The notes beneath the pieces were generated by a model. That model searched no databases. It worked only from the letters and a program-made list of their open reading frames with translations, and was not told the DNA's origin. Positions 34,983 through 64,000 of a stretch of DNA of 64,000 nt are shown here, piece after piece. Origin of the DNA: Candidatus Omnitrophota bacterium. Its GTDB lineage: Bacteria; Omnitrophota; Gorgyraeia; Zapsychrales; Zapsychraceae. Location of the stretch: positions 72,968-136,967 of the forward strand of contig JAHFGL010000004.1 of assembly GCA_023247445.1 (NCBI GenBank), written 5' to 3'. The stretch's first letter is position 1, and every line of letters starts with the position of its first letter. The position numbers and the translations under genes are program-made.

Positions 34983-35567
34983 ATGCCACAAGAAACCCTA
35001 AACGAAAGAGAATTTGAACTTGTTAATATCATTGGCGCCAAGCTCGGCTCCAATCAGCGCGATTTGTCGCGCATTATGGATCTTTCTTTAGGGATGATCA
35101 ACATGCTCGTCCGCCGAATGATCGCCAAAGGCTATATCCGCATCAACCAGCTTAGTAAACGTAAAGTCGAATATCTCCTAACAACAAAAGGTTTTAGTGA
35201 AAAGACGCGTAAATCTGTTAAGTATACGCTTAAGACTATTGATTCCATTAGTCGTATCAAAATTCGACTTAAAGATGTTTTAAAGGAAGTTGTTCACAAA
35301 GACCAAATCAAAGAATTTATTATTTTAGGGAAGTCAGATTTTGCCTTTATTGTTGAAATGGTTTTAAGAGAATTAGATACACAGAATTATAAGATTTTGC
35401 ATGTTGAGGAGCCGCCATCCAAACAAAATGGGGCTTTACTTTTAATTTGTCGGGAAGGCTATGACGCGCTTAAAGGAGATCATGTGGTTAATGTGATCCA
35501 TGAGCTTGCGAAAGATTATCATTTCGCTGAATTTAAAACAGAAGGGGCTGGTAAAGGTGCAAGTTAA
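34983..35567 (+). CDS. Putative winged-helix (MarR/HTH-like) transcriptional regulator.
   Basis: The N-terminal EFELVNIIGAKLGSNQRDLSRIMDLSLGMINMLVRRMIAKGYIRI is a wHTH-like segment. The start is reassigned downstream of the consensus promoter. Confidence 0.45.
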   Translation: MPQETLNEREFELVNIIGAKLGSNQRDLSRIMDLSLGMINMLVRRMIAKGYIRINQLSKRKVEYLLTTKGFSEKTRKSVKYTLKTIDSISRIKIRLKDVLKEVVHKDQIKEFIILGKSDFAFIVEMVLRELDTQNYKILHVEEPPSKQNGALLLICREGYDALKGDHVVNVIHELAKDYHFAEFKTEGAGKGAS

Positions 35568-37362
35568 AAAGAGATTTGAAGATCTCAAGATTTTATTATT
35601 TTTCTTTCGCGAGCACAAGATAAGTGCTGGTTATGTTTTTTTGATGATGGTCCTTTCTAGTGTTTTTGAATCCGTTAATGTGGCGGCCCTTTATCCTGTC
35701 ATTAATTATGGTCTAAAGATGGATGGCGGCGGGCAAGGGCTCAAATGGCTTGAATTTGTGCTACATTCGTTCCGCTTTAATAATTTGTTTTTAGGATCTT
35801 GTTTACTTTTAATAGCGATTACGATGGTGGCTACTTCGTTAAAGATTTATTATCACTACTTGTCTAATAAGCTCATTATGCGGATCATTGCCGAGAATCA
35901 GAATAGTATTTTTCAGAAGCTCGCCTCTATGGAATATAAATATTTTGTTAAAAGTCAGCAAGGAAAGCTTATTTATGCCTCAACGGTTGCTCCAATAGGG
36001 ATTTCTTCTAATATTTTTTCTGCAGTCCGAAGTGCCAACTCTTTTGTCACCATTTTATTTTTGGCAACATTGATGATGTTTTTAACCTGGCAAGGCATGG
36101 TCTTTGTTATTGTTCTTGGAATTTTTTATATTTTCTTTGTCAGAAAAATTCTTAATCATTTTGTTCGTCAATTTTCACATTTAAGTGTCGAGGAAGATGA
36201 GAAAAAGAATATTATTCTCAATGAATTTATTAGTGGTATTAAGTCGATTAAGGCCTTTCATGTGGAATCTCTTTGGCAGGAGAGATTTTCTCAATCCGTT
36301 TTGCGCAGTGCCCAGTTTCGTTTTCAAGTTGTGCTTGGGCATGTTCTTCCTGACAGTTTTCTTAAGTTTATTTTTTTTAGCGGGATCGGTCTTATGGGAT
36401 TAGCGCTGGGCTTCTCTAATACAGGCAACATGATGAGTTTACTTCCGGCCTTGGGAACCTTTGCCATTGTCGCTAGCCGGATCATTCCCTATATCAACCT
36501 TTTTGGTAACGATATTGTTGCGGTCGCCCGTTACATGCCAGATATGAAAATTGTTTATGATCTTTTACACGAACAGATGGCAGAAAATTGGACAGGAACA
36601 AAAGCCCTCGGTCATTTCCAGAATAAGATTCAATTTCGAGATGTTTGGTTTAAATATGATGGGGCAGCAAATTTTTTATTTAAGGGACTAAACTTCTCGA
36701 TTGAAAAGGGAAAAGTCACCGCGGTTGTCGGACCATCAGGCGCTGGAAAATCTACGATTATTAATCTTCTTCTTAGCCTATTTTCAGTCGCAAAAGGAGA
36801 GATTTTATTGGATGGAATAAATATTAAAGAGTTTAGTCGTGAGTCTTATTTGCAAAAAGTTGGCTATATTTCGCAAGAGACATTTATTTTTAATGGCACG
36901 ATTCGCGATAATATTTGTTTTGGACTTAGTTATTCAGATGAAGAGATAATCGCCGCGGCTCAACTCGCCAATGCGCATGAATTTATTTTAGCTGCCGAGA
37001 AAGGGTATGACACGATTGTCGGTGATGCCGGGATTAAGCTTTCCGGTGGACAACGCCAGCGTCTCGCGATTGCTCGCGCCATGCTTCGCCGTCCAGAAAT
37101 TCTCATTTTGGATGAGGCAACGAGCTCTCTAGATAATGTTAGCGAACGACAAGTTCAACAAGCCATTAATAATATTGCTCATCGCACAACCGTTTTTCTT
37201 GTGGCTCATCGCCTTTCAACGGTTCAGAACGCTGATAAAATTGTTGTCTTAGAACATGGTCAGATTGCGGAAGAGGGAACGCATGAGCAATTGATAAAGA
37301 ATCGCCGGGCATATTTTCAACTTTATACAACGACGCAAATAGGGGATGAAATAAAAATATGA
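35557..37362 (+). CDS. ABC exporter with fused TMD-NBD, MsbA/lipid-glycan flippase-like.
   Basis: Six TM helices followed by an NBD with Walker A (GPSGAGKST), the signature LSGGQRQRLAIARA and Walker B (ILILDEAT). A GTG at 35557 is chosen as the start so that TM1 is retained. Confidence 0.8.
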   Translation: MQVKKRFEDLKILLFFFREHKISAGYVFLMMVLSSVFESVNVAALYPVINYGLKMDGGGQGLKWLEFVLHSFRFNNLFLGSCLLLIAITMVATSLKIYYHYLSNKLIMRIIAENQNSIFQKLASMEYKYFVKSQQGKLIYASTVAPIGISSNIFSAVRSANSFVTILFLATLMMFLTWQGMVFVIVLGIFYIFFVRKILNHFVRQFSHLSVEEDEKKNIILNEFISGIKSIKAFHVESLWQERFSQSVLRSAQFRFQVVLGHVLPDSFLKFIFFSGIGLMGLALGFSNTGNMMSLLPALGTFAIVASRIIPYINLFGNDIVAVARYMPDMKIVYDLLHEQMAENWTGTKALGHFQNKIQFRDVWFKYDGAANFLFKGLNFSIEKGKVTAVVGPSGAGKSTIINLLLSLFSVAKGEILLDGINIKEFSRESYLQKVGYISQETFIFNGTIRDNICFGLSYSDEEIIAAAQLANAHEFILAAEKGYDTIVGDAGIKLSGGQRQRLAIARAMLRRPEILILDEATSSLDNVSERQVQQAINNIAHRTTVFLVAHRLSTVQNADKIVVLEHGQIAEEGTHEQLIKNRRAYFQLYTTTQIGDEIKI

Positions 37363-45234: not shown

Positions 45235-46175
45235 AGATTGTTATTTTTGGATTAGGTTCAATTGGTTTAAAACACGCGGGAGTACTAAGTGATAATTTTT
45301 CTCATCAGTTATATGCCTTTCGTTCCAATCGAACAGAGATGACGAATAAAGGTAACATTAAGAATATTTCTTCATGGAAAGAAGTAGATCAGATTAGTCC
45401 GGATATCGCTTTAATTTCGAACCCGACAGACTTGCATATTGCAACCGCGATCGAATGTGCGCGATGTGGAATGCATCTATTTATTGAAAAGCCGTTAGGA
45501 GCCAGCCTTAAAGATTTGGATAAATTATTAGCGGTTGTGAAAAAGAAGAAGCTAGCAACGTATGTGGCTTATCTTTTAAGGTTTCATCCAGTTGTTATGT
45601 ATGTGAAGAAAATTCTTTCAGCCAAAAAGTTTTTACATATGCGGGTTGTGACAAGTTCTTATTTGCCGTCATGGCGTGCTGGAACGGATTACCGTAGCGG
45701 TTATTCAGCTTCTCGCAAAAGAGGCGGCGGCGTTATCTTAGACCTGTCGCATGAACTTGATTATATTTCTTATATTACTGATGGCGTTAAAGATGTGTCA
45801 GCTCAATTTGAGAGACGAAGTGATCTAACAATCGATGCGGAAGATTTTGCAGATATCTTGGTCAAAACAAATAAAGGTCCAGCTAATTTACACATAAATT
45901 TTTTCAGTCACATCAATAAACGCCAGATCTCGGTTGATTTTAAAGATTCTTCCCTAACAGGTGATCTTTTAGAAAATAAAGTTTGTTGGTATAAAAAGGG
46001 TAAATTGCTTAAGACGGTTAAGTTCAAGGACGGTGTTCAAGATTGTCTGCTTAAGGAATGGAAATACTTTTTATCGAATTTAAACAAGCGTCGGATGATG
46101 AACAATGTGTTTGAGGCCACGGTGCTATTTAAAAAGATGCATGCGCTAAAGACAGGAAAGACAACTTATGCTTAA
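45231..46175 (+). CDS. Gfo/Idh/MocA-family oxidoreductase at the PtmF position.
   Basis: MKIVIFGLGSIGLKH and LFIEKPLG (EKP motif). Confidence 0.6.
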   Translation: MKIVIFGLGSIGLKHAGVLSDNFSHQLYAFRSNRTEMTNKGNIKNISSWKEVDQISPDIALISNPTDLHIATAIECARCGMHLFIEKPLGASLKDLDKLLAVVKKKKLATYVAYLLRFHPVVMYVKKILSAKKFLHMRVVTSSYLPSWRAGTDYRSGYSASRKRGGGVILDLSHELDYISYITDGVKDVSAQFERRSDLTIDAEDFADILVKTNKGPANLHINFFSHINKRQISVDFKDSSLTGDLLENKVCWYKKGKLLKTVKFKDGVQDCLLKEWKYFLSNLNKRRMMNNVFEATVLFKKMHALKTGKTTYA

Positions 46176-46878
46176 TATCCTTTTAACGATCGCGGCCCGT
46201 GGAGGGTCAAAGGGGGTTAAGAAAAAGAATATCAAACTTTTAGCGGGGCGCCCTTTAATTTCATATACGATTGCCCAGGCGAAAAGATGGGGAAAGGCCA
46301 AACATATTGTGGTCACGACCGATTCTTTAGAAATTGCTAAGGCGGCCAAGAAATTTGGCGCTGATGTTCCTTTCTTGCGGCCGAAAAATTTAGCGACTAG
46401 CACAGCATCTAAGGTCGATGTCATCAAACATGCGCTCATAGCCTCGGAAAATTATTATAAACAGAAGTTTGATGTTGTCGTGGACTTGGATGTAACGAGT
46501 CCGATAAGAACAGTTAAAGATTTAGATAACTGTTTAAAACTTTTTTTAAGAAAAAAACCGAATACTTTATTTAGTGTCGTTACGGCCAAGAAGAATCCTT
46601 ATTTTAATATGGTTGAAGAAAATAATGGCAAGGTTGTTTTATCTAAGCAATTGCCCGGCCGCATTGTTCGTCGGCAAGATGCACCCAAAGTTTATAGCAT
46701 GAACGCCTCGATTTATTTTTATGATCGTAAATATTTATTAACGGCAAAAGTTCCATCGCCTATTAATAATCGATGCTGCATGTATGAGATGGATGAGTTG
46801 TCCAGCGTTGATATCGATTCTGAACTTGATTTTAAATATATTGACCTATTGGTTAAGGAAAAATTGGTGCGCTTATGA
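46168..46878 (+). CDS. neuA: CMP-nonulosonic acid synthetase (acylneuraminate cytidylyltransferase; NeuA/LegF-like).
   Basis: ILLTIAARGGSKGVKKKNIKLLAGRPLISYTI is the CMP-NeuAc synthetase N-terminal signature. Size 236 aa. Confidence 0.85.
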   Translation: MLNILLTIAARGGSKGVKKKNIKLLAGRPLISYTIAQAKRWGKAKHIVVTTDSLEIAKAAKKFGADVPFLRPKNLATSTASKVDVIKHALIASENYYKQKFDVVVDLDVTSPIRTVKDLDNCLKLFLRKKPNTLFSVVTAKKNPYFNMVEENNGKVVLSKQLPGRIVRRQDAPKVYSMNASIYFYDRKYLLTAKVPSPINNRCCMYEMDELSSVDIDSELDFKYIDLLVKEKLVRL

Positions 46879-50685: not shown

Positions 50686-52314
50686 ATGCAGAATAGGATC
50701 CAAGGTAAAAGAATTGATGGTGTTTTAGGTAATAATGAGCTGCGTGATTATTTGGCTAACAAAGAAGAGACCGCCGCCGTTGAGGTTGTCAAATCCAGTC
50801 AAGATCTCTATCAATACCAAAAACCTTTTACACGTCCAATCCAAACATTGCTCATTGCGCCGCCAATTACGATCCCGCGCAATATGCAAAAAAGGTGCAT
50901 TCCTCCTTTAGGGTTAAGTTATATTGCCGCCTCAATTGAAAAAGCTGGTTTAAATGTCAAGATGCTCGATGCCATGATTGAAGGTTATCATCATGATGAG
51001 TTTAATGGCAATCTTATGACCTATGGCCTTTCGATGCAGCAGTTAGAGGATCGACTTCGTCAAATGCCGGTCGCCCCCGATGTTATTGGTACATCGGTAT
51101 TATTCTCAACGGATTTACATAATCTTTATAACGTTGCTAAGGTGATCAAGAGAGTCTTTCCAGAAAGCATCATGATTGTTGGCGGACTTCATCCAACAAT
51201 TTATCCCAAAGAAATTTTTGAAATTGATGAGCAGATAAATGGAAAGAATCGCACCGTTGATTTTGTCATCCGCGGCGAAGGAGAAGTACGTTTTGTTGAG
51301 TTTATTAAGCTGATGCAAAAAGGCTTGATTGATCGAAAAGGCGATGGATTAGTTGGTTATCTTAATGGCGAGTTTTTCTGTAACCATCAAAAGGGAACAA
51401 TTGAAAATATCGATTCCTTACCTTTTCCCGCCTATCATTTACTTCCCATGGAAAAATATTTAAGTATCAATATCCCATTTTCACCGGTTCCGCAAGGAAA
51501 TCGCGTGGCCCAAATTCTAACTTCGCGGGGTTGCCCGATTGGATGCAGTTTTTGTGCGAGTACGAATATGTATAAAAGATATCGTCATCGTTCGGTTGAA
51601 AATATTATGCAGGAGATATTTCAGCTTAAAGAAAGATACGATATTGATGAAATTCAATTTGCCGACGATAATTTAACATTAAATCGTGAACATTCGATTC
51701 AGTTTTTTAATGAACTAAAAAAAGCTGGCCTAAAATGGTGTACGCCCAACGGGACCATGATCAATACGTTGACGCCGGATCTTTTGGATTTAATGGCTCA
51801 ATCGGGTTTGTATCAGATTACGTTGTCTGTTGATAGCGCTAATGCCAAGACCCTTAAAAACCTTCATCATAAACCGGTTAATTTAAACAGTATTCCGGGG
51901 CTTATTGCCAAAGCGAAAGAATATGGCATCTTTACGCATGGAACGCTTGTTGTCGGAATGCCAGGGGAAACAATTGATGATGTGAAAGAAGGTTTTGATT
52001 ATGTCAAAAGCAACTTGGGTTTTACCAGTATTTCAACATTTATCGCGGCCGCTATTCCCGGATCAGAGCTTTATCATCAATCATTAGACAAAGGATTAAT
52101 TACTCGAGAAGAGGCGCGGATGATTGATACGACAAAAAATAAAATTCATTTGTCGGAGATGAATCCAGAAGTTTTAGAAACCATGGTCATGGATTTTCAG
52201 GCAGAGTTTACGGAGATTGCTAAGAACCGTGATCCCGAAGAATATTATCGTAAATATAAAAAATTAATTGAATCAGGTCGATTAAAGGGCGCCTATGGGG
52301 GACGTTTAACATGA
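50686..52314 (+). CDS. Cobalamin-binding (class B) radical SAM enzyme, a putative radical methyltransferase.
   Basis: An N-terminal B12-binding Rossmann segment (CIPPLGLSYIAASIEKAGLNVKMLD). The radical SAM CxxxCxxC lies in ILTSRGCPIGCSFCAS. 542 aa. Confidence 0.75.
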   Translation: MQNRIQGKRIDGVLGNNELRDYLANKEETAAVEVVKSSQDLYQYQKPFTRPIQTLLIAPPITIPRNMQKRCIPPLGLSYIAASIEKAGLNVKMLDAMIEGYHHDEFNGNLMTYGLSMQQLEDRLRQMPVAPDVIGTSVLFSTDLHNLYNVAKVIKRVFPESIMIVGGLHPTIYPKEIFEIDEQINGKNRTVDFVIRGEGEVRFVEFIKLMQKGLIDRKGDGLVGYLNGEFFCNHQKGTIENIDSLPFPAYHLLPMEKYLSINIPFSPVPQGNRVAQILTSRGCPIGCSFCASTNMYKRYRHRSVENIMQEIFQLKERYDIDEIQFADDNLTLNREHSIQFFNELKKAGLKWCTPNGTMINTLTPDLLDLMAQSGLYQITLSVDSANAKTLKNLHHKPVNLNSIPGLIAKAKEYGIFTHGTLVVGMPGETIDDVKEGFDYVKSNLGFTSISTFIAAAIPGSELYHQSLDKGLITREEARMIDTTKNKIHLSEMNPEVLETMVMDFQAEFTEIAKNRDPEEYYRKYKKLIESGRLKGAYGGRLT

Positions 52315-53063
52315 GTTTGTCCATGGTCAGAGCGCAAAATTTAAAATTCGCTGAGAGTTTTGATGTTGTAAAAAAACATTTTATGCGGGAAGGATTTTAT
52401 TCGACCGCCATAACGGAATGCGTATATGATCTTATTACATATTATTTTGCGCCAATTATCCTTAAATTAAAATTGAGCTTAAATGACATTTCTCTTATAA
52501 GAATTGCTTTAGTTATTTCTTGTGTGTTATTTACAATTTTTGGTGGGCTTGAGGGTTGGCGGATAGGTTTTCTACTTTTCTTTATCGCTAATATTCTAGA
52601 TTATGTCGATGGGCGGGTTGCTCGGGCAACCAGTAAAGGGACTTATTTTGGTCACTTTATTGATGGATTAATTGATATCGCTTCTGAAACCATGATTCGC
52701 TTTGCGTTAGCTTGGGGAATCTATCATCAGTTTGGGTTTACCCCGTTATTTTGGTTAGGAATTCTAAGTATGATGTTAACATCATTTCATATTTTTCTTT
52801 ATGACCGTTATTCAGCTTTTGCCCGATGGATAAGCTCGACAAATAATATGAATATTTCCCCTGTTCTGCAGAGAAAAGGCCTTTTAAAACCTCAAAATGT
52901 AATGTGGGATTTAGAATGGTTATCTTTGTTTTTTTCTTTGGCTTTTTTTGTGCAAGCAATTTGGATCTATTTTATTTTAAGTCTGATTCACCAGGTGTTT
53001 TTTATTACCTATATTATAAACGGAGCCCATGACAACATGAGAGTTCCTAATGAGGCCCATTAA
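52311..53063 (+). CDS. CDP-alcohol phosphatidyltransferase family membrane protein.
   Basis: The diagnostic D-G-x2-A-R-x8-G-x3-D-x3-D motif is present as DYVDGRVARATSKGTYFGHFIDGLIDIASE, within a protein of about 6 TM helices. Confidence 0.7.
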   Translation: MSLSMVRAQNLKFAESFDVVKKHFMREGFYSTAITECVYDLITYYFAPIILKLKLSLNDISLIRIALVISCVLFTIFGGLEGWRIGFLLFFIANILDYVDGRVARATSKGTYFGHFIDGLIDIASETMIRFALAWGIYHQFGFTPLFWLGILSMMLTSFHIFLYDRYSAFARWISSTNNMNISPVLQRKGLLKPQNVMWDLEWLSLFFSLAFFVQAIWIYFILSLIHQVFFITYIINGAHDNMRVPNEAH

Positions 53064-55524: not shown

Positions 55525-56681
55525 ACACAAAATTATTTGGTCAAGAATTAAAAACGTATGGATTTAACTTCTTTTCCGGCGTTCCATGTTCTTTTTTAAA
55601 AGACCTTATTAATTATGCGATTAATGATTTGCGTTATGTCGCGGCCGCTAACGAAGGCGATGCCGTTGCCATTGCGGCAGGCGCTTATCTTGGCGGCATT
55701 AAATCCGCGGTCCTCATGCAAAATTCTGGATTAACGAATGCGACCTCACCATTAACATCATTGGTTTATACTTTTAAGATTCCGATTTTGGGGTTTGTTA
55801 GTCTTCGGGGAGAAACAGGAATTACTGATGAACCGCAGCACGAACTTATGGGAACGATAACAACCAAGTTTTTAGATACAATGCAAATTCCATGGGCATT
55901 TCTTTCTGACCAAATCGAAGAAGCGCGAGAGCAATTAAAGCAGGCCAACGCTTTTATTGAAGAGAATAAGCCATTTTTCTTTGTTGTGCGCAAGGGAACC
56001 TTTGAGCAAGAATCTCTTAAAGCCCGGACGATCCCTTCTGTTAAAAATAATCGAAAGGTTTTAGAATCAAAATCTAGTCATCTTGTTAGCCGTAACGACG
56101 CTTTAACTGAGATTCATAAAATTAAGGATGACGACACTGTTTTTTTGGCAACGACGGGAGTAACGGGAAGAGAGCTTTATGAGATTGATGATGCGGAAAA
56201 TAATCTTTACATGGTTGGATCCATGGGATGTGTCAGTTCATTAGGATTAGGCCTGGCGCTGGCTACGCCGCAAAAAAAAGTTGTGGTCATTGATGGCGAT
56301 GGATCTTTACTCATGCGGATGGGAGCACTCGCGACTAACGCAGCGTATGGGCCAAAAAATTTATTGCATATTACTTTGGATAACGGGATTCATGATTCAA
56401 CGGGCGGACAAGACACCGCTTCTCTAAATCTGAGTTTTGTCGAAATTACGGCCGCCTGTGGTTATGATCAAGCCTTATATGCTCACGATCTTGATGAATT
56501 AAAAAAATATATCAATCAATGGAAAAGTAATCCGGCATTAACTTTTATTCATTTAAAGATTAAGAAAGGGACAAGAGAAGATTTGTCTCGTCCTAAAATT
56601 AAACCTTTTGAAGTTAAGAATCGGTTAATGAAATTTTTAATCAAGAAGAGTAACGTTTTGCATTCACAACATGCAAAATGA
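55518..56681 (+). CDS. ppd: Phosphonopyruvate decarboxylase (TPP-dependent).
   Basis: YGFNFFSGVPCSFLKDLINYA...VAAANEGDAVAIAAGAYLGG (N-terminal PYR domain) and GSMGCVSSLGLGLALA...IDGDGSLLM (TPP-binding GDG). It is directly downstream of pepM, as in all AEP pathways. Confidence 0.8.
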   Translation: MLNTKLFGQELKTYGFNFFSGVPCSFLKDLINYAINDLRYVAAANEGDAVAIAAGAYLGGIKSAVLMQNSGLTNATSPLTSLVYTFKIPILGFVSLRGETGITDEPQHELMGTITTKFLDTMQIPWAFLSDQIEEAREQLKQANAFIEENKPFFFVVRKGTFEQESLKARTIPSVKNNRKVLESKSSHLVSRNDALTEIHKIKDDDTVFLATTGVTGRELYEIDDAENNLYMVGSMGCVSSLGLGLALATPQKKVVVIDGDGSLLMRMGALATNAAYGPKNLLHITLDNGIHDSTGGQDTASLNLSFVEITAACGYDQALYAHDLDELKKYINQWKSNPALTFIHLKIKKGTREDLSRPKIKPFEVKNRLMKFLIKKSNVLHSQHAK

Positions 56682-58378
56682 AAGGAGATTTTATGGAGCA
56701 AGCTCCTGAAGTATCTTCAAAAATTCGCAATCCTGTTTTAGAAAAAAATATTCCCGAAGATAGTGGACTGCGTGAATATTTGGCTGGTAAGGAAGAGACG
56801 GGTTTTGTTAAAGCCTCTATCAGAACGACAAATCTTATCCGCACTCATGAAGGTAGCGATAACTGGCCACGAACACTTTTACTTATGCCTCCGATTACTT
56901 TGTCGGAAGGAACGGTTAAACGAGTTATTCCGCCGTTAGGCTTAGCTTATATTGGGGGATACTTAGAGTCACAAAATATTCCCTTTGATATTCTTGACTG
57001 CGTGGTTGAGGCCTTGCACGAAGAACGTTTGATTAGTGATAAAACATGGCAATATGGGATGTCGTATGATCAAATTCGGAAATATATCGAAAATTATAAA
57101 CCGGATATTTTGGGCCTTTCCATCATGTATTCGTCAGATCTACATGCCCTTTATGAGGTGGCTCAAATTGCCAAGGAAATTAATCCTAAGATAATAACGA
57201 TTGGGGGAGGGATTCATCTTTCAATTTACCCCAAAGAAGTTTTAAATGAAAGTTTGATTGATGGAAAGCCAACCCTGGATTATCTTATCCGTGGGGAAGG
57301 TGAAATCCGTCTCGCCGAGTTTATTAAAAATTATAAACAAGGACTGATAGATATTAATGCGGATGGTTTATGTGGTTGGAATAATGGCAAAATTTTTCTA
57401 AATCCTCAAGTTGAAACAATCAAAAATTTAGACGACATGCCTTTCCCCGCTTATCATCGATTGCCGATGGAAAAATATTTTGAGTGGAATGTTCCGTTTT
57501 CTCCATATCCTCGAGGGAAAAGAGTTATGCAACTTTATACCTCCCGCGGATGTCCGGTTGGCTGTACGTTTTGCGCCAGTACCAATTTCAATAAAGCTTA
57601 TCGTGGGCGTTCTCCAGAAAATATCATCAAGGAAATTAAATATTATCAGGAAGTCTACAATATTGATGAAATTCAATTTGCTGATGATAATTTAACTTTT
57701 GATCGAACGCGGTCCATGGAGTTCTTTGAACTCTTGAAAGATTGTAACCTCCCTTGGTGTACACCCAATGGAACGATGGTCAATACGTTGACAGAAGAAG
57801 TGCTGGAGAAAATGATTGCTTCAGGTCTTTATCAAGTCACCCTTTCTTTAGACAGTGGTAGTGTTAAGACCTTAAAGCAGTTTCATCGAAAGCCTGTAAA
57901 CCTACAAAAGGTCCCGGGGTTAATTGCTTATTTAAAACCTAGGGGTATTTTAAGTCATGGGACAATTGTTGTTGGGATGCCAGGAGAAACGATTGCGGAC
58001 ATTGAAGAAGGTTTTGATTATACCCGTAATTTAGCCTTAGACAGCGTCGCTGTTTTTATTGCTCAGGCCTTGCCAGGTTCTGAGCTTTATGAAAAGGCTA
58101 TCGCGAGTGGCACCATTGATCGTTTTAAGGCCCGCATCATTGATACGCAGCAAAATTTAATTAATCTTTCTGATGTTCCCCGGGAATATCTTGAAAGACG
58201 TGTGAGGGAATTTGTCGCTGAATTTAATCAGGTTGTTCGTAAAAACGATCCTGAAACTTTTGATAAGAAATACGCAAAGCATAAGGACCGTCTAAGACAA
58301 ATTTGTATTGGAATGGCTCATCATAATGTAGACGGCATACTTAAAGCCTATGAGTCATCGCCGGTAGAAACAGTTTAA
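56678..58378 (+). CDS. Cobalamin-binding (class B) radical SAM enzyme, a paralog of 50686..52314.
   Basis: VIPPLGLAYIGGYLESQNIPFDILD (B12 domain) and LYTSRGCPVGCTFCAS (CxxxCxxC). It is roughly 40-45% identical to the first copy along its length. Confidence 0.75.
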   Translation: MKGDFMEQAPEVSSKIRNPVLEKNIPEDSGLREYLAGKEETGFVKASIRTTNLIRTHEGSDNWPRTLLLMPPITLSEGTVKRVIPPLGLAYIGGYLESQNIPFDILDCVVEALHEERLISDKTWQYGMSYDQIRKYIENYKPDILGLSIMYSSDLHALYEVAQIAKEINPKIITIGGGIHLSIYPKEVLNESLIDGKPTLDYLIRGEGEIRLAEFIKNYKQGLIDINADGLCGWNNGKIFLNPQVETIKNLDDMPFPAYHRLPMEKYFEWNVPFSPYPRGKRVMQLYTSRGCPVGCTFCASTNFNKAYRGRSPENIIKEIKYYQEVYNIDEIQFADDNLTFDRTRSMEFFELLKDCNLPWCTPNGTMVNTLTEEVLEKMIASGLYQVTLSLDSGSVKTLKQFHRKPVNLQKVPGLIAYLKPRGILSHGTIVVGMPGETIADIEEGFDYTRNLALDSVAVFIAQALPGSELYEKAIASGTIDRFKARIIDTQQNLINLSDVPREYLERRVREFVAEFNQVVRKNDPETFDKKYAKHKDRLRQICIGMAHHNVDGILKAYESSPVETV

Positions 58379-58419
58379 AAAAGAAAATAAACAATATAGT
58401 TAAAAAGGGGGATTGAAGT

Positions 58420-59193
58420 ATGCTCAAAACAAATTATTTTACCAAGTCGGAGTTAGAAGCGTATGACAGGGATGGATTTATCCTTGTTAAAAACTTTTTT
58501 GATGCCGAGAAATTAAAACACGTTATTAAGATGGTGGATGAATTAATCGCGATGCCTGATAGGGTTGGATTCATTTGGAAGTTTTACGAAGATTTATCAT
58601 CAAATGGAGCAGGTAAAATTCTAGATCGTATTGAGAATTATACTTTTTTGGTTGATGGATGGAAGGGGCTTATCGCTGAAGGAGAATTGCGAGATCGTTC
58701 TTCGGAGCTTTTTGGTGAAGACGCAATTCTATTTAAGGATAAAATTAATTTTAAATATCCTGGTGGACGAGGATTTAAACCTCATCAAGATATGCATGGT
58801 GATTGGCAGATTTATGCCGAGAAATTTTTGACAGCATCAATTGCCTTAGATCGATGCACTATTGAAAATGGATGTCTTTATGTTTCCGCAGGTGATCATA
58901 AAAGAGGCCTTTTTGGAAAAATGTGGGAACCAATTCCTGATGAGTTATTAAAGAAAGAAAATATTAAGTGGATTCCATTAGAAATGGAAGCGGGAGATGT
59001 GGCCTTTTTTGATGCTTATACGCCTCATTATTCAGAGCGTAATTTAAGTAAAATCCGTCGAGCCATGATCCATTTAACTTATAATAATAAAACCGCTGGC
59101 GATTTTTATCAAAAGCATCTTGATGATAAAAGAGTGAACTATCCTCCGGATATCGAGCGAAAAGAAGGTAAAAGCTATGTTTATCGTGTCTAA
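58420..59193 (+). CDS. Phytanoyl-CoA dioxygenase (PhyH) family Fe(II)/2-oxoglutarate oxygenase.
   Basis: 257 aa. An HxD...H facial-triad arrangement (HQDMHGDW ... TPHYSERN) and a PhyH-like N-terminal region (DGFILVKNFF). Confidence 0.65.
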   Translation: MLKTNYFTKSELEAYDRDGFILVKNFFDAEKLKHVIKMVDELIAMPDRVGFIWKFYEDLSSNGAGKILDRIENYTFLVDGWKGLIAEGELRDRSSELFGEDAILFKDKINFKYPGGRGFKPHQDMHGDWQIYAEKFLTASIALDRCTIENGCLYVSAGDHKRGLFGKMWEPIPDELLKKENIKWIPLEMEAGDVAFFDAYTPHYSERNLSKIRRAMIHLTYNNKTAGDFYQKHLDDKRVNYPPDIERKEGKSYVYRV

Positions 59194-59208
59194 AACATAA
59201 CTTTTAAT

Positions 59209-60327
59209 ATGAAAGTAAGAAGAAACATACTTCTTAATCCCGGTCCAGCGACAACGAGTGATAGTGTTAAGAAGGCCCTCATCGTTGCGGATATTTGCCC
59301 GCGGGAAAAAGAATTCGTCAAGGTTGTTGATGGTGTCCGTCTAGATTTAGTCAAGATAGTTAAAGGCGATGGGCAGTATGCCTGTATTCTCTTGGCTGGA
59401 TCTGGAACGGCCGCCATGGATGCCTGCATTAATTCAGTTGCCCCACCCAAAAGTAGGATTGCGATTATCAACAATGGTGCCTATGGTAAGCGCTTAATTG
59501 ACATTGCAAAGTCTTATTCTCTAGATTATGTCGAAATACAATCAGCTTGGGAAAAGCCGCTCGATCCAAGTGTCGTTGAAGCAGTGCTTAAAAATGATCC
59601 ATCAATACGTTGTTTAGCGATGGTCCATCATGAGACAACAACCGGCCTGTTGAATCCATTAAAAGAGGTGGGAGCGATTGCGAAAAATTATAATTGCACA
59701 TTTATTGTCGATGCCATTTCTAGTTTTGCGGGTATTCCAATTGACATAAAAAAATGTCATGTCGATTTTTTGATATCGACCGCTAATAAGTGCATTCAGG
59801 GAATGCCTGGACTGGCTTTTATTATCTGCCACCAACCGGAATTAGCAAAGATTAGAAATTATCCTCGCCGTTCTTTTTATTTAAGTTTGTTTGATGAATA
59901 TAGTTATTATCAAAAAACAGGAGAGACGCGCTTTACCCCTCCGGTACAGGTGGTATATGCCCTGCGGCAGGCGATTAAGGAATATTCAAAGGAAGGCGCC
60001 ACGGGGCGTTATAAGCGTTATACGGCCAATTGGAAGGTCTTGCGCGATGGATTAGAGAGGATGGGATTTAAGTTTTTATTAAGGAAAGAAGATGAGTCAC
60101 ATATTTTAATGACCATGATGGAGCCGAATCATCCCAAATATAATTTTGATAAAATGCATGATCTTTTGTACAAGAAAGGTTTTACGATTTATCCCGGGAA
60201 GATTGGCCAGCTCAAAACATTTCGATTAGCGAATATGGGGGACATTAACCCAGCAGATATTAAACGTTTTTTACAAGAGTTAAAGAATGTATTAAAGAAA
60301 ATGGAAGTTTATTTAAAGAATGACTAA
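59209..60327 (+). CDS. 2-aminoethylphosphonate:pyruvate aminotransferase (class V aminotransferase; PhnW/AepZ-like).
   Basis: ILLNPGPATTSDSVKKAL...ACILLAGSGTAAMDA...STANKCIQGMPGLAFI places the PLP Lys in the xNKC motif. It belongs to the serine-pyruvate/AEP transaminase family and sits in the cluster with pepM and ppd. Confidence 0.75.
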   Translation: MKVRRNILLNPGPATTSDSVKKALIVADICPREKEFVKVVDGVRLDLVKIVKGDGQYACILLAGSGTAAMDACINSVAPPKSRIAIINNGAYGKRLIDIAKSYSLDYVEIQSAWEKPLDPSVVEAVLKNDPSIRCLAMVHHETTTGLLNPLKEVGAIAKNYNCTFIVDAISSFAGIPIDIKKCHVDFLISTANKCIQGMPGLAFIICHQPELAKIRNYPRRSFYLSLFDEYSYYQKTGETRFTPPVQVVYALRQAIKEYSKEGATGRYKRYTANWKVLRDGLERMGFKFLLRKEDESHILMTMMEPNHPKYNFDKMHDLLYKKGFTIYPGKIGQLKTFRLANMGDINPADIKRFLQELKNVLKKMEVYLKND

Positions 60328-62425
60328 GGATCAAAATAAAAATGAGTCTCCCTATGTGTGCTGGGTTGATCACGTAAGTTTTTTAGCTCTGGCCAGAATC
60401 CTTTTCTTAAGGCTACAGTATCCTTTCACAGCCATCCGTTACATCACGATCAGTCTCCAGGTTAAGAAAATCGTCGAGCGTTTCTTAAAATCACTCAAAT
60501 TTGAAAATGTGTATTTATTCGCGAATAATGTATCTCCTCACGAAGAGATGGCGATTACCAATAAGACATATGACGATACGGTTTCTTTCATCGATCAAGT
60601 CATCAAACCTTCAGAATCTGTTACGCCAATGCTTAGTTTTATTGACGAGCGTTACAACAAAGAAACAATTGATTTCTTTATGAAGCAAGAAATTGCCTTT
60701 GAGATCGATGTCCCTTTAAGGCTTTTTAACTGTATTATTTTTCAAAGTCAAAAGACCAGAGGAACAGCAGCATCTAAAAATATCGTTCTTATCAAAGATA
60801 ATTATTGGATAGATTATTTTAGGTCTTTTTATGCTTCACATGTTATCCAGGTGAGTGCGTATCCAAATATTAAAGAATTTATCAACAAAATTTATGTTTT
60901 CTTTAAATTAATCGTTGAGATTTTTTTAAATGGAATTCTTTTAGTGTTGGGTAAGAAAATAAATGATCAGGAGTTTAATGCCTCGGCTAAAATTGCTGTC
61001 TTACATGCGCAAGGAGTAAATCTAGAGAAAAAGACTGATTATTTCTGGTTTCCCGGTTCTGGCATAAATTCAGAGCAGATTCTTCTGTACTTTAAATATC
61101 CTACCAGACCACCCAGTCCAGAGGTTTTAGAGTTTGTGAATCGTAATAAAATTCCTTGGATTAACCTTTTGCCATGGAAAATTGGACATAAGAAATTATT
61201 GGGCGCAACGGCAGAATTCAATCGTTTCCCTGACAAGGGGTATCTTAAATTATTAATGCAGACACTCAAAACAAGCATCCGGATATTGTTTTTTTGTTTA
61301 ATCAATCGCCGACGAAAACTGTTTGGTTTTTGGAAATTTTTAACAGCGCTGTTGGCCACGATCAATTTTTTTGAAGCTTTTTTTAAGACTTACAATATCA
61401 AAGTCCATTTTGCCATGCATGATGGAGGGCGTGATATGGTGGCGGCCAATATTGCCATTGAGGTCGTTGGTGGAATTGATTTGTGCACGCACTGGTCTAG
61501 TTATGACACTACGATGTTAACGATGGGCAAAAGTCACGATGTTTGTTTTACCTGGGGCCCTTTTTTTACTAAGCATTTTTTTAGTAAGCCCTACTATTCA
61601 TTTAAAAATTTTGTTTATAGTGGCTATCTTTTTGATCGATCATTTGAATCATGTCAGAAAAAATCTAAGAAATATCGGCAACAACTTTTAAATGAAGGGG
61701 CAGAGTTTATTATTTGTCTATTTGACCAAAATAATCCCATCGAACGGCCTTTATGGAATCAGGAAGTTGAGAAATTATATCGTCGTCTCCTTGAGCTTGT
61801 CATTAAAGATAAAAAGTTGGGTCTTATTATCAAACCTAAAAAAATAAATCCAAAGGTCAAGCTATCGGCGATTGCTTCATTACTTCAAGAAGCTGAAACG
61901 ACCAAACGGTGTTTTGTTTTGATGGGAGATACTTTCCCTAATGAGGCCTCGCAAGCTTCTGATTTAGCTATCGGAGTATCGGTTGCCAGTACACCAACCG
62001 TCGAGGCTGCTTTGGCTGGGGCGAAGTGCATTACCTTTGATTTGGAAAGTCATTACGAGCATCCGTTTTATAAAGAGGGTCATCATAAGATTGTTTTTGA
62101 TGATTTGGATGAAATGTTTGAAACCATCGCCCGTTTTCGTTTAGAGCCATTATCTAGAAAAGGATTTGGCGATTATTCTTTTATTCTGCCTGAGATTGAT
62201 CCTTTCCGTGATCATAAAGCCTCAGAACGTATTGGGATTTATATCCGTGTTTTGCTGGAAGAGTTTGTTAAAGGGCATAATAAAGCAAGGGTTATCAACG
62301 TTGCCAACGAGTTTTATCGCCGTCAATATGGTCAAGATAAAGTGCTTGAGAGAAGCTTAAGCAGTGATGCAACGAGTGTTGAAAACATGGTGGATTCAAT
62401 TGTGTTGTCCAAAAGAGGAATTTAA
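60320..62425 (+). CDS. Large hypothetical protein of 701 aa, a candidate glycosyl/phospho(no)transferase.
   Basis: No firm motif. The C-terminal third (GDTFPNEASQASDLAIGVSVASTPTVEAALAGAKCITFD) looks like the last Rossmann unit of GT-B or TagF/KpsC-type transferases. It is translationally coupled to the AEP transaminase. Confidence 0.35.
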   Translation: MTKDQNKNESPYVCWVDHVSFLALARILFLRLQYPFTAIRYITISLQVKKIVERFLKSLKFENVYLFANNVSPHEEMAITNKTYDDTVSFIDQVIKPSESVTPMLSFIDERYNKETIDFFMKQEIAFEIDVPLRLFNCIIFQSQKTRGTAASKNIVLIKDNYWIDYFRSFYASHVIQVSAYPNIKEFINKIYVFFKLIVEIFLNGILLVLGKKINDQEFNASAKIAVLHAQGVNLEKKTDYFWFPGSGINSEQILLYFKYPTRPPSPEVLEFVNRNKIPWINLLPWKIGHKKLLGATAEFNRFPDKGYLKLLMQTLKTSIRILFFCLINRRRKLFGFWKFLTALLATINFFEAFFKTYNIKVHFAMHDGGRDMVAANIAIEVVGGIDLCTHWSSYDTTMLTMGKSHDVCFTWGPFFTKHFFSKPYYSFKNFVYSGYLFDRSFESCQKKSKKYRQQLLNEGAEFIICLFDQNNPIERPLWNQEVEKLYRRLLELVIKDKKLGLIIKPKKINPKVKLSAIASLLQEAETTKRCFVLMGDTFPNEASQASDLAIGVSVASTPTVEAALAGAKCITFDLESHYEHPFYKEGHHKIVFDDLDEMFETIARFRLEPLSRKGFGDYSFILPEIDPFRDHKASERIGIYIRVLLEEFVKGHNKARVINVANEFYRRQYGQDKVLERSLSSDATSVENMVDSIVLSKRGI

Positions 62426-62427
62426 TC

Positions 62428-63519
62428 GTGCAAGTCAAAGATGATGCGGCATTATTAAAGATGATGATGGAGGATTTGAAAAAAGCGCCGGAGCTTTATC
62501 GACCAACCAATTATTGGCAATGTTATGAAGAAAAATTTGCTGCTGAATTATTTAAGGTTGGGTTACATGATTTTCGTCGTCGAAATAATTCCGTTCTTTC
62601 GAGCTTCGCTGGAACAGATTTAGCCGAGAAATATGCAATTGATCTTTTGGCGAGCCGGTTATTTAACAATCGCTATACACGTCTGATTCCGTTTTGGCAT
62701 AAATTTCTTTCTTTTTGGAATTCTATACTTAACAAGCTTCTGCCCATTACAACACCATATAACATAACAACCGAGGATATTCAGCACTTGGCGTATTCGG
62801 TTGCCCGTTTAAAGGCTGAGAAGACAAACGCAAAACCTATTGATCAATTTGACACCTCATTAGCGGGTAATCCCGAAGATGTTTTTGTTATTAATGACAA
62901 GGCGTATACAACGCATCACTTTGATTACTATCTTAATTACGTCTACTGCACCAAATTTCTTGATTTTAGCAAAGTTAAATTGTTTGTAGAGTTAGGCAGC
63001 GGCGCTGGACGGCAGATTGAGGTTTTAAAGAAACTATATCCGCAGATGACATTTTGTCTTTATGACATTCCACCACAGATTTATGTTTGTGAACAATATT
63101 TGAGTTCGGTTTTTCCTGGGCAGGTGGTTTCTTATCGTCAGACACGAGGGATGAAAACAGTCCCATCGGGTGACGGAAAGATTTATATCTTTGGCAGCTG
63201 GGATTTTGAAATGGTTAAGAATATGCCGGTTGATCTATTCTGGAATTGTGCCAGCTTTCAAGAAATGGAACCGGAGATTGTGGCAAATTATCTTTCCTTC
63301 GTGAATAAAAGCGCGGCCAATGTGTTTTTATTAGAGGCCACCCGTGGCCAACATGTGGCCAAGCAAAAAGGTGAGCCAGGGGTTCTGCGTAAGACAACAT
63401 TTGATGATTACAAACAAGGGCTTAAGGATTTTAAGTTAGTTGATTTGTCGCCTGTTGTTTCAATCCCAAAGATGCATTCAGAAAACGATCACAGCATATC
63501 TTTCTGGAAAAAAAGTTAA
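62428..63519 (+). CDS. Hypothetical protein with a putative class I SAM-methyltransferase fold.
   Basis: A glycine-rich VELGSGAGRQIEVLKKLYPQMTFCLYDIPPQI resembles an AdoMet-binding motif I/II. Otherwise unknown. Confidence 0.35.
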   Translation: MQVKDDAALLKMMMEDLKKAPELYRPTNYWQCYEEKFAAELFKVGLHDFRRRNNSVLSSFAGTDLAEKYAIDLLASRLFNNRYTRLIPFWHKFLSFWNSILNKLLPITTPYNITTEDIQHLAYSVARLKAEKTNAKPIDQFDTSLAGNPEDVFVINDKAYTTHHFDYYLNYVYCTKFLDFSKVKLFVELGSGAGRQIEVLKKLYPQMTFCLYDIPPQIYVCEQYLSSVFPGQVVSYRQTRGMKTVPSGDGKIYIFGSWDFEMVKNMPVDLFWNCASFQEMEPEIVANYLSFVNKSAANVFLLEATRGQHVAKQKGEPGVLRKTTFDDYKQGLKDFKLVDLSPVVSIPKMHSENDHSISFWKKS

Positions 63520-63520
63520 T

Positions 63521-64000
63521 ATGAAGATTGTCCTTTTAGAATTTATTGATGAAGCCAAGGCCTTGATGGACAGCTATGGGAGAGATTTCTTTACCCAAAA
63601 AGATATCAAAGTCATTTGTCTTCATCCGAAGGTGCATGCGTATTTTAAAAAAGAAGGGATTGAGGCGCTTGATACAATTCCATTTTTAAGTAATGAAGCT
63701 CAGCATCGGATTATTCGTAAGAGTGAAGATCTTACGTTGAAATTAATGGCTGAACTAAATTTGGTCGATGGATTTAATATCCGCCAAGGATATCGAGAGG
63801 TTTGCATCCATCACCTGCGTTTATATCTGAATCATTTTCTTTGGATATTAGAAGTTCTAAACGGCGTTCGCGAAAAATATAAGATTGAACAAGTGTATGC
63901 GTGTGTGCCAAGTAACCGTCAATCGATGTATTTACGAAAAGGATATATTCAGAAAACAGAACGGTTTTTAGGGTTACTCGCCAAAGATTTTTGTGACAAG
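63521..64000 (+). CDS. Hypothetical protein, 3'-partial and not in the ORF track.
   Basis: ATG at 63521, 1 nt after the previous stop. The frame is open for 160 codons to the window end (MKIVLLEFIDEAKALMDSYGRDFF...). Confidence 0.45.
   Translation, partial: MKIVLLEFIDEAKALMDSYGRDFFTQKDIKVICLHPKVHAYFKKEGIEALDTIPFLSNEAQHRIIRKSEDLTLKLMAELNLVDGFNIRQGYREVCIHHLRLYLNHFLWILEVLNGVREKYKIEQVYACVPSNRQSMYLRKGYIQKTERFLGLLAKDFCDK

What the first reader, a model, noticed from the sequence alone, without database searches (positions are those of the whole stretch)
60320..64000. Three uncharacterised proteins are translationally coupled to the phosphonate genes
A 701-aa protein has no clear family but a GT-B/TagF/KpsC-like C-terminal Rossmann unit. 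A 363-aa protein is methyltransferase-like. A third ORF is cut by the window end. They follow the AEP transaminase with 8-nt, 3-nt and 1-nt junctions, so they are almost certainly co-expressed. They are the best candidates for a transferase that attaches the phosphonate, or a nonulosonic acid, to its acceptor. They could be new enzyme families.
Basis: inference. Interest (0 to 1): 0.6.

Follow-up and report, generated by a model that had tools for sequence, protein, structure and literature searches.

The report
Sugar-acid transferases beside phosphonate genes
The three genes after the phosphonate genes are two large, untested glycosyltransferase-like proteins and a sugar methyltransferase; all three sit at the end of a sialic-acid-like sugar cluster, and relatives of the two large proteins keep turning up in such clusters rather than with phosphonate genes, so they are ordinary but poorly studied.

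Summary
Three tightly packed + strand ORFs follow the AEP transaminase: ORF-A (60320-62425, 701 aa), ORF-B (62428-63519, 363 aa) and ORF-C (63521 onwards, cut by the window end). The middle junction is a 2-nt gap, not 3.

- **ORF-B** is a confident member of NCBIfam TIGR04371, a "putative sugar O-methyltransferase" family (E 1e-67). It is not a new family.
- **ORF-A** passes no curated model. It folds as a GT-B enzyme (pLDDT 83) and belongs to a large unnamed family (2035 cluster representatives).
- **ORF-C** is the start of a 656-aa GT-B protein, a weak match to the LIC12162 family.
- Relatives of ORF-A and ORF-C give repeated sub-threshold C-terminal matches to the Tannerella forsythia pseudaminic/legionaminic acid transferase family.

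In 18 informative related loci, ORF-A homologues sit with nonulosonic acid (NulO) genes in 17. Only 4 have phosphonate genes, and 4 have sulfation genes instead.

ORF-A and ORF-C are most likely transferases for CMP-activated sugar acids, not phosphonate transferases. The CDP-alcohol phosphotransferase at 52311-53063 is the better candidate for attaching the phosphonate. I rate this a new member of a known kind, of moderate interest.

The parts
60320..62425 (+). ORF-A, 701 aa. A GT-B-fold protein from a large uncharacterised family linked to nonulosonic acid clusters. It is a putative transferase for a CMP-activated nonulosonic acid. It has a conserved H581-P582 and one strongly hydrophobic helix at 190-212.
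   Evidence: ORF and junction. No curated family. Homologues: 12 close and 2035 cluster representatives. AF2 model pLDDT 83, pTM 0.84. GT-B matches in Foldseek. Family members give sub-threshold matches to PFTS_polysacc (22/69) and the BFO_1060 glycosyltransferase (14/69). Synteny. Residue conservation. Hydropathy.
62428..63519 (+). ORF-B, 363 aa. A member of TIGR04371 (methyltran_NanM), described as a putative sugar O-methyltransferase. It carries a class I SAM-binding motif, ELGSGAG.
   Evidence: TIGR04371 E 1e-67, 228.6 bits against a cut-off of 44. Pfam Methyltransf_2 E 2.7e-6, above its cut-off. Translation. GAGGA lies 8 nt before the GTG. No homologue in any of the 22 related loci.
63521..64000 (+). 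ORF-C, the first 160 aa of a 656-aa protein. A second GT-B-fold protein of the LIC12162 / surface carbohydrate biosynthesis group. It is a putative transferase for a second CMP-activated sugar acid.
   Evidence: Start and 1-nt gap. 47-63% identity to the N-termini of 650-690-aa proteins next to ORF-A homologues. A metagenome contig carrying an identical ORF-B has a 656-aa gene 1 nt downstream, then a cytidylyltransferase. The closest full-length homologue models at pLDDT 93 and is GT-B. Family matches: TIGR04396 41/47, BFO_1060 37/47. A precomputed PF27859 LIC12162 hit is on record.
59209..60327 (+). Context: the 2-aminoethylphosphonate transaminase, last gene of the phosphonate cassette. Its stop overlaps the ORF-A start.
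   Evidence: TIGR03301 E 1e-133. Overlap read.
52311..53063 (+). Context: a membrane protein of the CDP-alcohol phosphotransferase family inside the phosphonate cassette. It is the better candidate for transferring the phosphonate from CMP-AEP.
   Evidence: PF01066 E 5e-10. Several hydrophobic segments. A homologue lies beside pepM in L004 and L006 and was found in no locus without pepM; the two other phosphonate loci, L022 and L024, show none.
46168..46878 (+). Context: CMP-nonulosonic acid synthetase of the upstream legionaminic-acid-type pathway. It would supply the presumed donor for ORF-A.
   Evidence: Translation. 52-56% identical homologues sit in the ORF-A loci L010, L011, L015, L023, L024, L026 and L027; the L010, L011, L015 and L023 copies lie 1-8 kb upstream of ORF-A. 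The equivalent genes are annotated CTP_transf_3 in related loci. The window gene itself was not scanned against Pfam.
35500..37362 (+). Context: a fused ABC exporter (membrane plus ATPase domains) at the head of the same-strand cluster. Homologues recur next to ORF-A and ORF-C.
   Evidence: PF00005 and PF00664. Homologues in L004, L010, L014, L022 and L024.

Best explanation
The three genes are the assembly and tailoring end of a surface-glycan operon, about 35.5 kb to beyond 64 kb on the + strand. The operon makes a legionaminic-acid-type nonulosonic acid (NulO) and a phosphonate decoration.

ORF-A and ORF-C are two structurally similar GT-B-fold enzymes. Each has an N-terminal alpha/beta domain of about 180 aa, one hydrophobic helix, and a GT-B core. 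Most likely each takes a CMP-activated sugar acid and transfers it to the growing glycan. ORF-A would use the CMP-NulO made by the upstream cassette. ORF-C would use the product of the cytidylyltransferase cassette that directly follows it beyond the window.

ORF-B is a SAM-dependent sugar O-methyltransferase that tailors the sugar or glycan. The phosphonate is activated as CMP-AEP by the PepM-nucleotidyltransferase fusion. It is more likely attached by the cassette's own CDP-alcohol phosphotransferase than by ORF-A or ORF-C.

Shown here: the gene structure, the GT-B fold, the family relations and the synteny. Inferred: the donor, the acceptor and the division of labour between the two large proteins.
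For: - Fold: the ORF-A model (pLDDT 83, pTM 0.84) and the model of the closest ORF-C homologue (pLDDT 93) match many GT-B enzymes over 450-500 alignment columns. These include a bacterial polysialyltransferase, TarL and TagF.
- Remote homology: C-terminal domains of family members repeatedly match NF046086, the BFO_1060 family glycosyltransferase (14/69 for ORF-A relatives, 37/47 for ORF-C relatives). They also match TIGR04417 (22/69) and TIGR04396 (41/47). BFO_1060 is a homologue of the T. forsythia Pse/Leg-derivative transferases, whose requirement was shown by knock-out and complementation (PMC5420450).
- Synteny: NulO genes flank ORF-A homologues in 17 of 18 informative loci, including members only 25-30% identical. 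In 7 loci ORF-A directly follows the WbuX amidotransferase.
- Fusions: two family members carry an N-terminal PseH-like acetyltransferase domain.
- ORF-C: its homologues are followed directly by a conserved cytidylyltransferase (69-77% identical) in six loci. The same holds on the contig that continues this locus.
- Motif: H581-P582 is kept in the close homologues, with H in 12/12 and P in 10/12. From my own knowledge, this resembles the HP motif of CMP-sugar-using GT-B enzymes.
- ORF-B: TIGR04371 at E 1e-67.
Against: - No family member has been tested biochemically.
- All matches to curated transferase families fall below their cut-offs and cover only the C-terminal nucleotide-binding domain.
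- The window's ORF-A itself matches none of these models, even at E <= 1.
- The top Foldseek matches are UDP-GlcNAc 2-epimerases, and Foldseek does not separate GT-B subfamilies.
- The D/E-D/E-G motif of bacterial sialyltransferases is not conserved across the family, and H581 is kept in only 42 of 69 diverse members.
- ORF-A and ORF-C are not significantly related by profile comparison (hhalign E about 0.005, probability 6-7%).
- The acceptor is unknown.
Confidence: 0.6

Rival explanations
1. ORF-A, or ORF-C, is the phosphonate transferase. It would act like TagF, moving the AEP phosphonyl group from CMP-AEP onto a glycan hydroxyl.
For: ORF-A directly follows the AEP transaminase, with overlapping or adjacent codons, in the window and in L004, L006 and L022. 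The GT-B fold is shared with the CDP-glycerol and CDP-ribitol phosphotransferases TagF and TarL, which appear among the Foldseek matches. The donor would also be a CMP conjugate.
Against: Only 4 of 18 informative loci with an ORF-A homologue have any pepM/AEP gene. Most have none, and all but one have NulO genes. In L001, L011 and L023 sulfation genes (a sulfotransferase, in two of them with ATP sulfurylase and APS kinase) occupy the same upstream slot. No Glyphos_transf (TagF) match occurs in 69 family members. The phosphonate cassette has its own CDP-alcohol phosphotransferase, and a homologue lies beside pepM in L004 and L006.
Confidence: 0.1
2. ORF-A and/or ORF-C are GT-B-fold enzymes that are not transferases. 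They could be nucleotide-sugar 2-epimerases or hydrolases like NeuC, acting in sugar-acid biosynthesis.
For: The best Foldseek matches for both models are UDP-GlcNAc 2-epimerases and NeuC, with TM-scores of 0.55-0.65 normalised to the target. One ORF-C relative carries a precomputed PF02350 Epimerase_2 hit.
Against: Several of the clusters with NulO genes, including the window, already encode a canonical NeuC-type epimerase. No Epimerase_2 hit occurs in 69 ORF-A relatives. Sequence-level matches go to putative transferase families, BFO_1060 and LIC12162. The proteins are nearly twice the size of the epimerases and have an extra N-terminal domain and a hydrophobic helix.
Confidence: 0.12
3. ORF-A is a processive polymerase that builds a homopolymer of the nonulosonic acid, comparable to polysialic or polylegionaminic acid. 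The polymer would then be decorated with phosphonate or sulfate and exported by the ABC transporter.
For: A polysialyltransferase is among the structural matches. ABC exporters recur beside ORF-A and ORF-C. Several clusters carry two or three of these large paralogues and few other glycosyltransferases. Anionic-modification cassettes sit next to ORF-A.
Against: There is no direct evidence of processivity, and no glycan structure is known. The window also encodes GT2 enzymes upstream.
Confidence: 0.15

Closest known systems
Tannerella forsythia Pse/Leg-derivative transferases Tanf_01245 and TFUB4_00887 (NCBIfam NF046086, BFO_1060 family glycosyltransferase)
   Same: They are encoded at the end of a CMP-NulO biosynthesis locus. 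In strain UB4 only a putative methyltransferase separates the transferase from that locus (PMC5420450). A GT-B/TagB-like fold is predicted for them. The C-terminal domain matches ORF-C relatives (37/47, best E 4e-9) and ORF-A relatives (14/69, best E 4e-6).
   Different: The Tannerella enzymes are about 445 aa, against 701 and 656 aa here. All matches fall far below the family cut-off of 200 bits and cover only the C-terminal domain. The window's ORF-A itself gives no match. The N-terminal 180-aa domain and the hydrophobic helix were not compared with the Tannerella enzymes; their size leaves little room for both.
TIGR04417 / PF27878 PFTS_polysacc (polysaccharide biosynthesis PFTS motif protein)
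   Same: It is a large uncharacterised protein of NulO and polysaccharide clusters. A true member (E 1e-40) lies in the same cluster as an ORF-A homologue in L006. 22 of 69 ORF-A relatives match it sub-threshold. Two close homologues carry a weak precomputed PF27878 hit.
   Different: ORF-A has VAST where that family has PFTS. No match reaches the 100-bit cut-off. Pairwise BLASTP of ORF-A against the L006 member gives only E 0.022.
TIGR04331 / PF27859 LIC12162 family transferase, and TIGR04396 surface carbohydrate biosynthesis protein
   Same: ORF-C relatives carry precomputed PF27859 hits in 13 of 51 proteins. They match TIGR04396 in 41 of 47 and TIGR04331 in 8 of 47. The size is similar and the context is a surface-glycan cluster.
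   Different: All matches are below the curated cut-offs. The window holds only the first 160 aa, which lie outside the matched C-terminal domain. No family member has a demonstrated activity.
TIGR04371 methyltran_NanM (putative sugar O-methyltransferase)
   Same: ORF-B matches nearly the full profile (positions 2-271 of 273) at 228.6 bits against a cut-off of 44.
   Different: Nothing differs at family level. The substrate is unknown, and ORF-B is absent from every related locus examined.
Bacterial GT-B enzymes that use CMP or CDP donors: polysialyltransferase (GT38, PDB 5wc6) and TagF/TarL
   Same: They share the GT-B fold. ORF-A has an HP dipeptide in the C-terminal domain.
   Different: There is no sequence-level match to their Pfam families. 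The D/E-D/E-G motif is not conserved. The structural similarity is no better than to unrelated GT-B enzymes.

Membership tests
TIGR04371 methyltran_NanM (ORF-B) | Whole-protein score above the curated cut-off of 44 bits, with near full-length profile coverage | tested here: met
   228.6 bits, E 1e-67, profile positions 2-271 of 273.
TIGR04371 methyltran_NanM (ORF-B) | Class I SAM-binding glycine-rich motif | tested here: met
   ELGSGAG is visible in the translation. It lies inside the Methyltransf_2 match, residues 176-249.
GT-B fold glycosyltransferase superfamily (ORF-A) | Two facing Rossmann-like domains | tested here: met
   AF2 model with pLDDT 83 and pTM 0.84. 78 PDB matches at E <= 0.001, the listed top 50 almost all GT-B enzymes, over 450-500 columns.
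GT-B fold glycosyltransferase superfamily (ORF-C) | Two facing Rossmann-like domains | tested here: inconclusive
   The closest full-length homologue, P0184 (63% identical over the window's 158 aa), models at pLDDT 93 and matches GT-B enzymes. The window holds only the N-terminal 160 aa.
TIGR04417 / PF27878 PFTS_polysacc (ORF-A) | Score above the curated cut-off of 100 bits | tested here: not met
   ORF-A gives no hit at E <= 1. 22 of 69 relatives hit below the cut-off, best E 2e-11.
TIGR04417 / PF27878 PFTS_polysacc (ORF-A) | The PFTS sequence motif | tested here: not met
   ORF-A has V-A-S-T (555-558) where the L006 member has P-F-T-S, in the only pairwise alignment obtained, which is weak (E 0.022).
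NF046086 BFO_1060 family glycosyltransferase (NulO transferase) | Score above the curated cut-off of 200 bits | tested here: not met
   ORF-A gives no hit. Relatives of ORF-A (14/69) and ORF-C (37/47) match only the C-terminal part of the profile, roughly positions 196-364, at under 40 bits.
TIGR04331 / PF27859 LIC12162 family (ORF-C) | Score above the curated cut-off of 225 bits | tested here: inconclusive
   The window fragment lacks the matched region. 8 of 47 relatives match sub-threshold, and 13 of 51 carry a precomputed PF27859 hit; the one shown in detail, P0166, is marked weak.
TagF / Glyphos_transf (PF04464) | Pfam match | tested here: not met
   ORF-A gives no hit at E <= 1. 0 of 69 relatives hit at E <= 0.01. 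TagF and TarL appear only as generic GT-B structural matches.
KpsC/KpsS Capsule_synth (PF05159) | Pfam match | tested here: not met
   No hit. Not among the top 50 structural matches.
Maf / DUF115 (PF01973) | Pfam match | tested here: not met
   No hit for ORF-A, ORF-B or ORF-C, nor for 69 ORF-A relatives.
LicD (PF04991) | Pfam match | tested here: not met
   No hit.
Bacterial GT-B sialyltransferases (GT38/52/80) | Conserved HP and D/E-D/E-G motifs. These definitions come from my own knowledge and from PMC5420450. | tested here: inconclusive
   For H581-P582, H is kept in 12/12 and P in 10/12 close homologues, but H in only 42/69 and P in 41/69 of the wider family. No conserved D/E-D/E-G was found.
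Any of the above transferase families | Demonstrated transfer from a CMP-activated donor | not testable with these tools
   This needs enzyme assays.

The most novel reading that the evidence does not exclude
ORF-A and ORF-C define two uncharacterised classes of large, membrane-associated GT-B polymerases. Together they would build a polymer of two different CMP-activated sugar acids in Omnitrophota-like bacteria. Interchangeable cassettes, phosphonate in some genomes and sulfate in others, would then give that polymer an anionic decoration. ORF-A would be the adaptor step that accepts the modified sugar.
Probability: 0.15. Interest if true: 0.65.

Novelty: new member of a known kind. Interest (0 to 1): 0.35.

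Why it matters
Few enzymes that transfer bacterial nonulosonic acids are known (PMC5420450). ORF-A belongs to a family of about 2000 sequence clusters that almost always sits in nonulosonic acid clusters and has no solved structure or assay. That makes it a reasonable target for finding new legionaminic or pseudaminic acid transferases.

For phosphonate biology the result is mainly a correction. The gene next to the AEP transaminase is probably not the phosphonate transferase. The cassette's own CDP-alcohol phosphotransferase should be tested first.

The swap between phosphonate and sulfate cassettes at the same position hints at modular anionic decoration of these glycans.

Tried and rejected
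- Exact look-ups of ORF-A and of its identical database copy P0001 found no contig.
- The homology search with the 160-aa ORF-C fragment gave one short hit. I repeated it with a full-length homologue.
- Profile searches of the PDB sequences found no relatives for ORF-A, ORF-B or the ORF-C family.
- The metagenome scan with ORF-B found nothing.
- Literature searches for 'PFTS', 'PF27878', 'LIC12162' and nonulosonic plus pepM gave nothing useful.
- Profile-profile comparison of the ORF-A and ORF-C families was not significant. I do not claim sequence-level homology between them.
- Considered and rejected by sequence: membership of TagF, KpsC/KpsS, Maf/DUF115 or LicD, and a specific functional tie to pepM (synteny counts).


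Full report
**Observation**

The window carries an uninterrupted + strand gene array from about 35.5 kb to its end. The last complete phosphonate gene is the 2-aminoethylphosphonate transaminase at 59209-60327 (TIGR03301, E 1e-133). Three ORFs follow it.
- ORF-A is 60320-62425, 701 aa. Its ATG overlaps the transaminase stop by 8 nt.
- ORF-B is 62428-63519, 363 aa. It starts at a GTG, 2 nt after the ORF-A stop, with GAGGA 8 nt upstream.
- ORF-C starts at ATG 63521, 1 nt after the ORF-B stop, and is cut by the window end after 160 codons.

Promoter- and terminator-like sites in 49000-64000 are no more frequent than in shuffled sequence. That fits co-transcription but does not prove it.

**Surroundings**

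Upstream is a legionaminic-acid-type nonulosonic acid (NulO) pathway. By my reading of the translations, backed by homologues in related loci, it holds a dehydratase/epimerase, a DegT aminotransferase, an acetyltransferase, NeuB and NeuC homologues, a CBS-nucleotidyltransferase, oxidoreductases and a CMP-NulO synthetase. These window genes were not scanned against a profile library. It also holds HisF, HisH and a WbuX amidotransferase (TIGR03573, E 1e-106). A fused ABC exporter heads the array.

The phosphonate cassette (50686-60327) follows. It holds:
- two B12-radical SAM methyltransferases of the Sden_1168 family;
- a CDP-alcohol phosphotransferase family membrane protein;
- a PepM fused to a nucleotidyltransferase domain, and a second nucleotidyltransferase;
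- phosphonopyruvate decarboxylase;
- a PhyH-type dioxygenase;
- the transaminase.

PepM-nucleotidyltransferase fusions are the commonest form of the enzyme, and stand-alone nucleotidyltransferases of the same Pfam family encoded in ppm clusters were shown to make CMP-AEP (PMC6697681).

**ORF-B**

ORF-B matches NCBIfam TIGR04371 (methyltran_NanM, "putative sugar O-methyltransferase") at E 1e-67. The score is 228.6 bits against a cut-off of 44, over almost the whole profile. It also passes Pfam Methyltransf_2. It is an ordinary member of a known, though biochemically untested, family.

No homologue was found in any of the 22 related loci. ORF-B is therefore an accessory of this particular cluster. 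In T. forsythia UB4 a putative methyltransferase likewise sits between the CMP-Leg locus and the Leg transferase (PMC5420450).

**ORF-A**

No Pfam or NCBIfam model reaches threshold, and no PDB sequence is related. The word-indexed search gave only 12 homologues, at 36-100% identity. A profile of those found 2035 cluster representatives, 1013 of them at E <= 1e-30. The family is therefore large and simply unnamed.

The AlphaFold model is confident (pLDDT 83, pTM 0.84). Foldseek against the PDB returns GT-B enzymes over 450-500 columns. They include UDP-GlcNAc 2-epimerases, HepE, OtsA, a bacterial polysialyltransferase, TarL and OGT/SPY, with no preferred subfamily.

Scanning 69 diverse family members against NCBIfam gave repeated sub-threshold hits of the C-terminal domain:
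- TIGR04417 PFTS_polysacc: 22 of 69;
- NF046086 BFO_1060 family glycosyltransferase: 14 of 69;
- TIGR04396 surface carbohydrate biosynthesis protein: 5 of 69.

Against Pfam, none of the 69 matched TagF, Capsule_synth, DUF115 or LicD. BFO_1060 is a homologue of the T. forsythia pseudaminic/legionaminic acid transferases, whose requirement was shown by knock-out and complementation (PMC5420450). Two family members carry an N-terminal PseH-like acetyltransferase domain.

Residues conserved across the wide family include D469, K505, R530, D548, E562, G567, D631 and R637. For H581-P582, H is kept in 12/12 and P in 10/12 close homologues, and H in 42/69 of diverse ones.

**ORF-C**

The 160 aa in the window are 47-63% identical to the N-termini of 650-690-aa proteins encoded next to ORF-A homologues. 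A metagenome contig (ENA ERZ27296333, 23.9 kb) carries an identical ORF-B. On it a 656-aa gene follows 1 nt downstream, and then a cytidylyltransferase.

The closest full-length homologue models at pLDDT 93 and is again GT-B. Of 47 family members, 41 hit TIGR04396, 37 hit BFO_1060, 10 hit TIGR04326 and 8 hit TIGR04331, all below cut-off. Precomputed annotation labels 13 of 51 as PF27859 LIC12162.

ORF-A and ORF-C share the same order of secondary-structure elements. Each also has a single strongly hydrophobic helix at the same place, 190-212 in ORF-A and 185-204 in the ORF-C homologue. Even so, they are not significantly related by profile comparison.

**Synteny**

I collected 22 non-redundant loci with an ORF-A homologue, from Omnitrophota, "Planctomycetales" and Firestonebacteria MAGs and from metagenomes. 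I mapped the window's proteins onto them with tblastn. Of the 18 loci with enough flanking DNA:

| Feature near the ORF-A homologue | Loci (of 18) |
|---|---|
| NulO genes | 17 |
| pepM/AEP genes | 4 (L004, L006, L022, L024) |
| Sulfation genes (sulfotransferase, ATP sulfurylase, APS kinase; not all three in every locus) | 4 (L001, L011, L022, L023) |

The gene directly upstream of the ORF-A homologue is WbuX in 7 loci. It is the AEP transaminase in 3 loci, as in the window, and a sulfation gene in 3.

ORF-C homologues occur in 9 of the 22 loci. By matching contig lengths, they also lie on at least three further ORF-A contigs. In six loci they are directly followed by a conserved cytidylyltransferase, 69-77% identical between loci, usually with HAD, HpcH-aldolase and 2-hydroxyacid dehydrogenase genes.

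A homologue of the CDP-alcohol phosphotransferase lies beside pepM in L004 and L006 and was found in no locus without pepM; L022 and L024 show none.

**Interpretation**

ORF-A and ORF-C are best read as GT-B transferases for CMP-activated sugar acids, in a NulO glycan pathway. ORF-A would serve the upstream NulO. ORF-C would serve the product of the downstream cytidylyltransferase cassette. ORF-B is a tailoring O-methyltransferase.

The phosphonate cassette is one of at least two interchangeable modification modules inserted just upstream of ORF-A. Its own CDP-alcohol phosphotransferase is the more economical candidate for AEP transfer. I put about 0.6 on the sugar-acid transferase reading, 0.1 on ORF-A being the phosphonate transferase, and about 0.12 on a non-transferase GT-B role such as an epimerase. 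A processive polymerase role (0.15) is a special case of the main reading.

**Novelty and limits**

ORF-B is already known at family level. ORF-A and ORF-C are divergent members of a set of curated but uncharacterised NulO-cluster families. The case is therefore a new member of a known kind and of moderate interest.

Several limits apply:
- No biochemical data exist for any family member.
- All transferase-family matches are sub-threshold and confined to the C-terminal domain.
- Foldseek cannot separate GT-B subfamilies.
- The synteny sample is small and taxonomically narrow.

Noticed in passing
L001:6298-10000; L011:9003-9950; L023:6269-9953; L022:6670-9236: In related loci, sulfation genes (a sulfotransferase alone in L011; with ATP sulfurylase and APS kinase in L001 and L023) occupy the slot just upstream of the ORF-A homologue, where the window has the phosphonate cassette. 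L022 has the AEP transaminase upstream and sulfate-activation genes downstream. This suggests swappable modules for anionic decoration of the same kind of glycan.
   Followed up: partly
P0027 (836 aa, on the contig of L014) and P0120 (862 aa): Two ORF-A family members carry an N-terminal PseH-like GNAT acetyltransferase domain (TIGR03585, E 2e-15 and 1e-30). The fusion links the family to pseudaminic-acid-type pathways.
   Followed up: partly
beyond window 64000; ENA contig ERZ27296333; L004:15882-21437; L020:12129-16073: ORF-C is followed by a second sugar-acid-like cassette: two cytidylyltransferases, a HAD hydrolase and a 2-hydroxyacid dehydrogenase, with radical SAM enzymes on the ERZ27296333 contig and L020 and an HpcH aldolase in L004 and L020. 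The product was not identified.
   Followed up: partly
window 50686-52314, 56678-58378 and 58420-59193: The phosphonate cassette has two B12-radical SAM enzymes of the Sden_1168 'P-methyltransferase' family (E 2e-179 and 5e-230). It also has a PhyH dioxygenase that resembles methylphosphonate hydroxylase (E 1e-40, below cut-off). The product may therefore be a methylated or hydroxylated AEP derivative rather than plain AEP.
   Followed up: no
window 60887-60955 (ORF-A residues 190-212) and P0184 residues 185-204: ORF-A and the ORF-C homologue each have one strongly hydrophobic helix (Kyte-Doolittle 2.2 and 1.9) at the same position. It lies between an N-terminal alpha/beta domain of about 180 aa and the GT-B core. 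It could be a membrane anchor or a buried core helix.
   Followed up: partly
window 54718-55524: The listed TTG start overlaps the PepM gene by 40 nt. An in-frame ATG at residue 13 (54754) would give a 4-nt ATGA overlap with the PepM stop, and is the more likely start.
   Followed up: no
L016:8001-12019; L018:6069-14362: Distant clusters carry two or three adjacent proteins of 640-695 aa of this kind, alongside two NeuB/cytidylyltransferase pairs and a Wzx-like flippase. This suggests glycans rich in several different sugar acids.
   Followed up: no
window 27-4580, 5603-9289 and 22480-26772: Three very large + strand ORFs (1517, 1228 and 1430 aa) lie upstream of the glycan cluster. They were not examined.
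   Followed up: no
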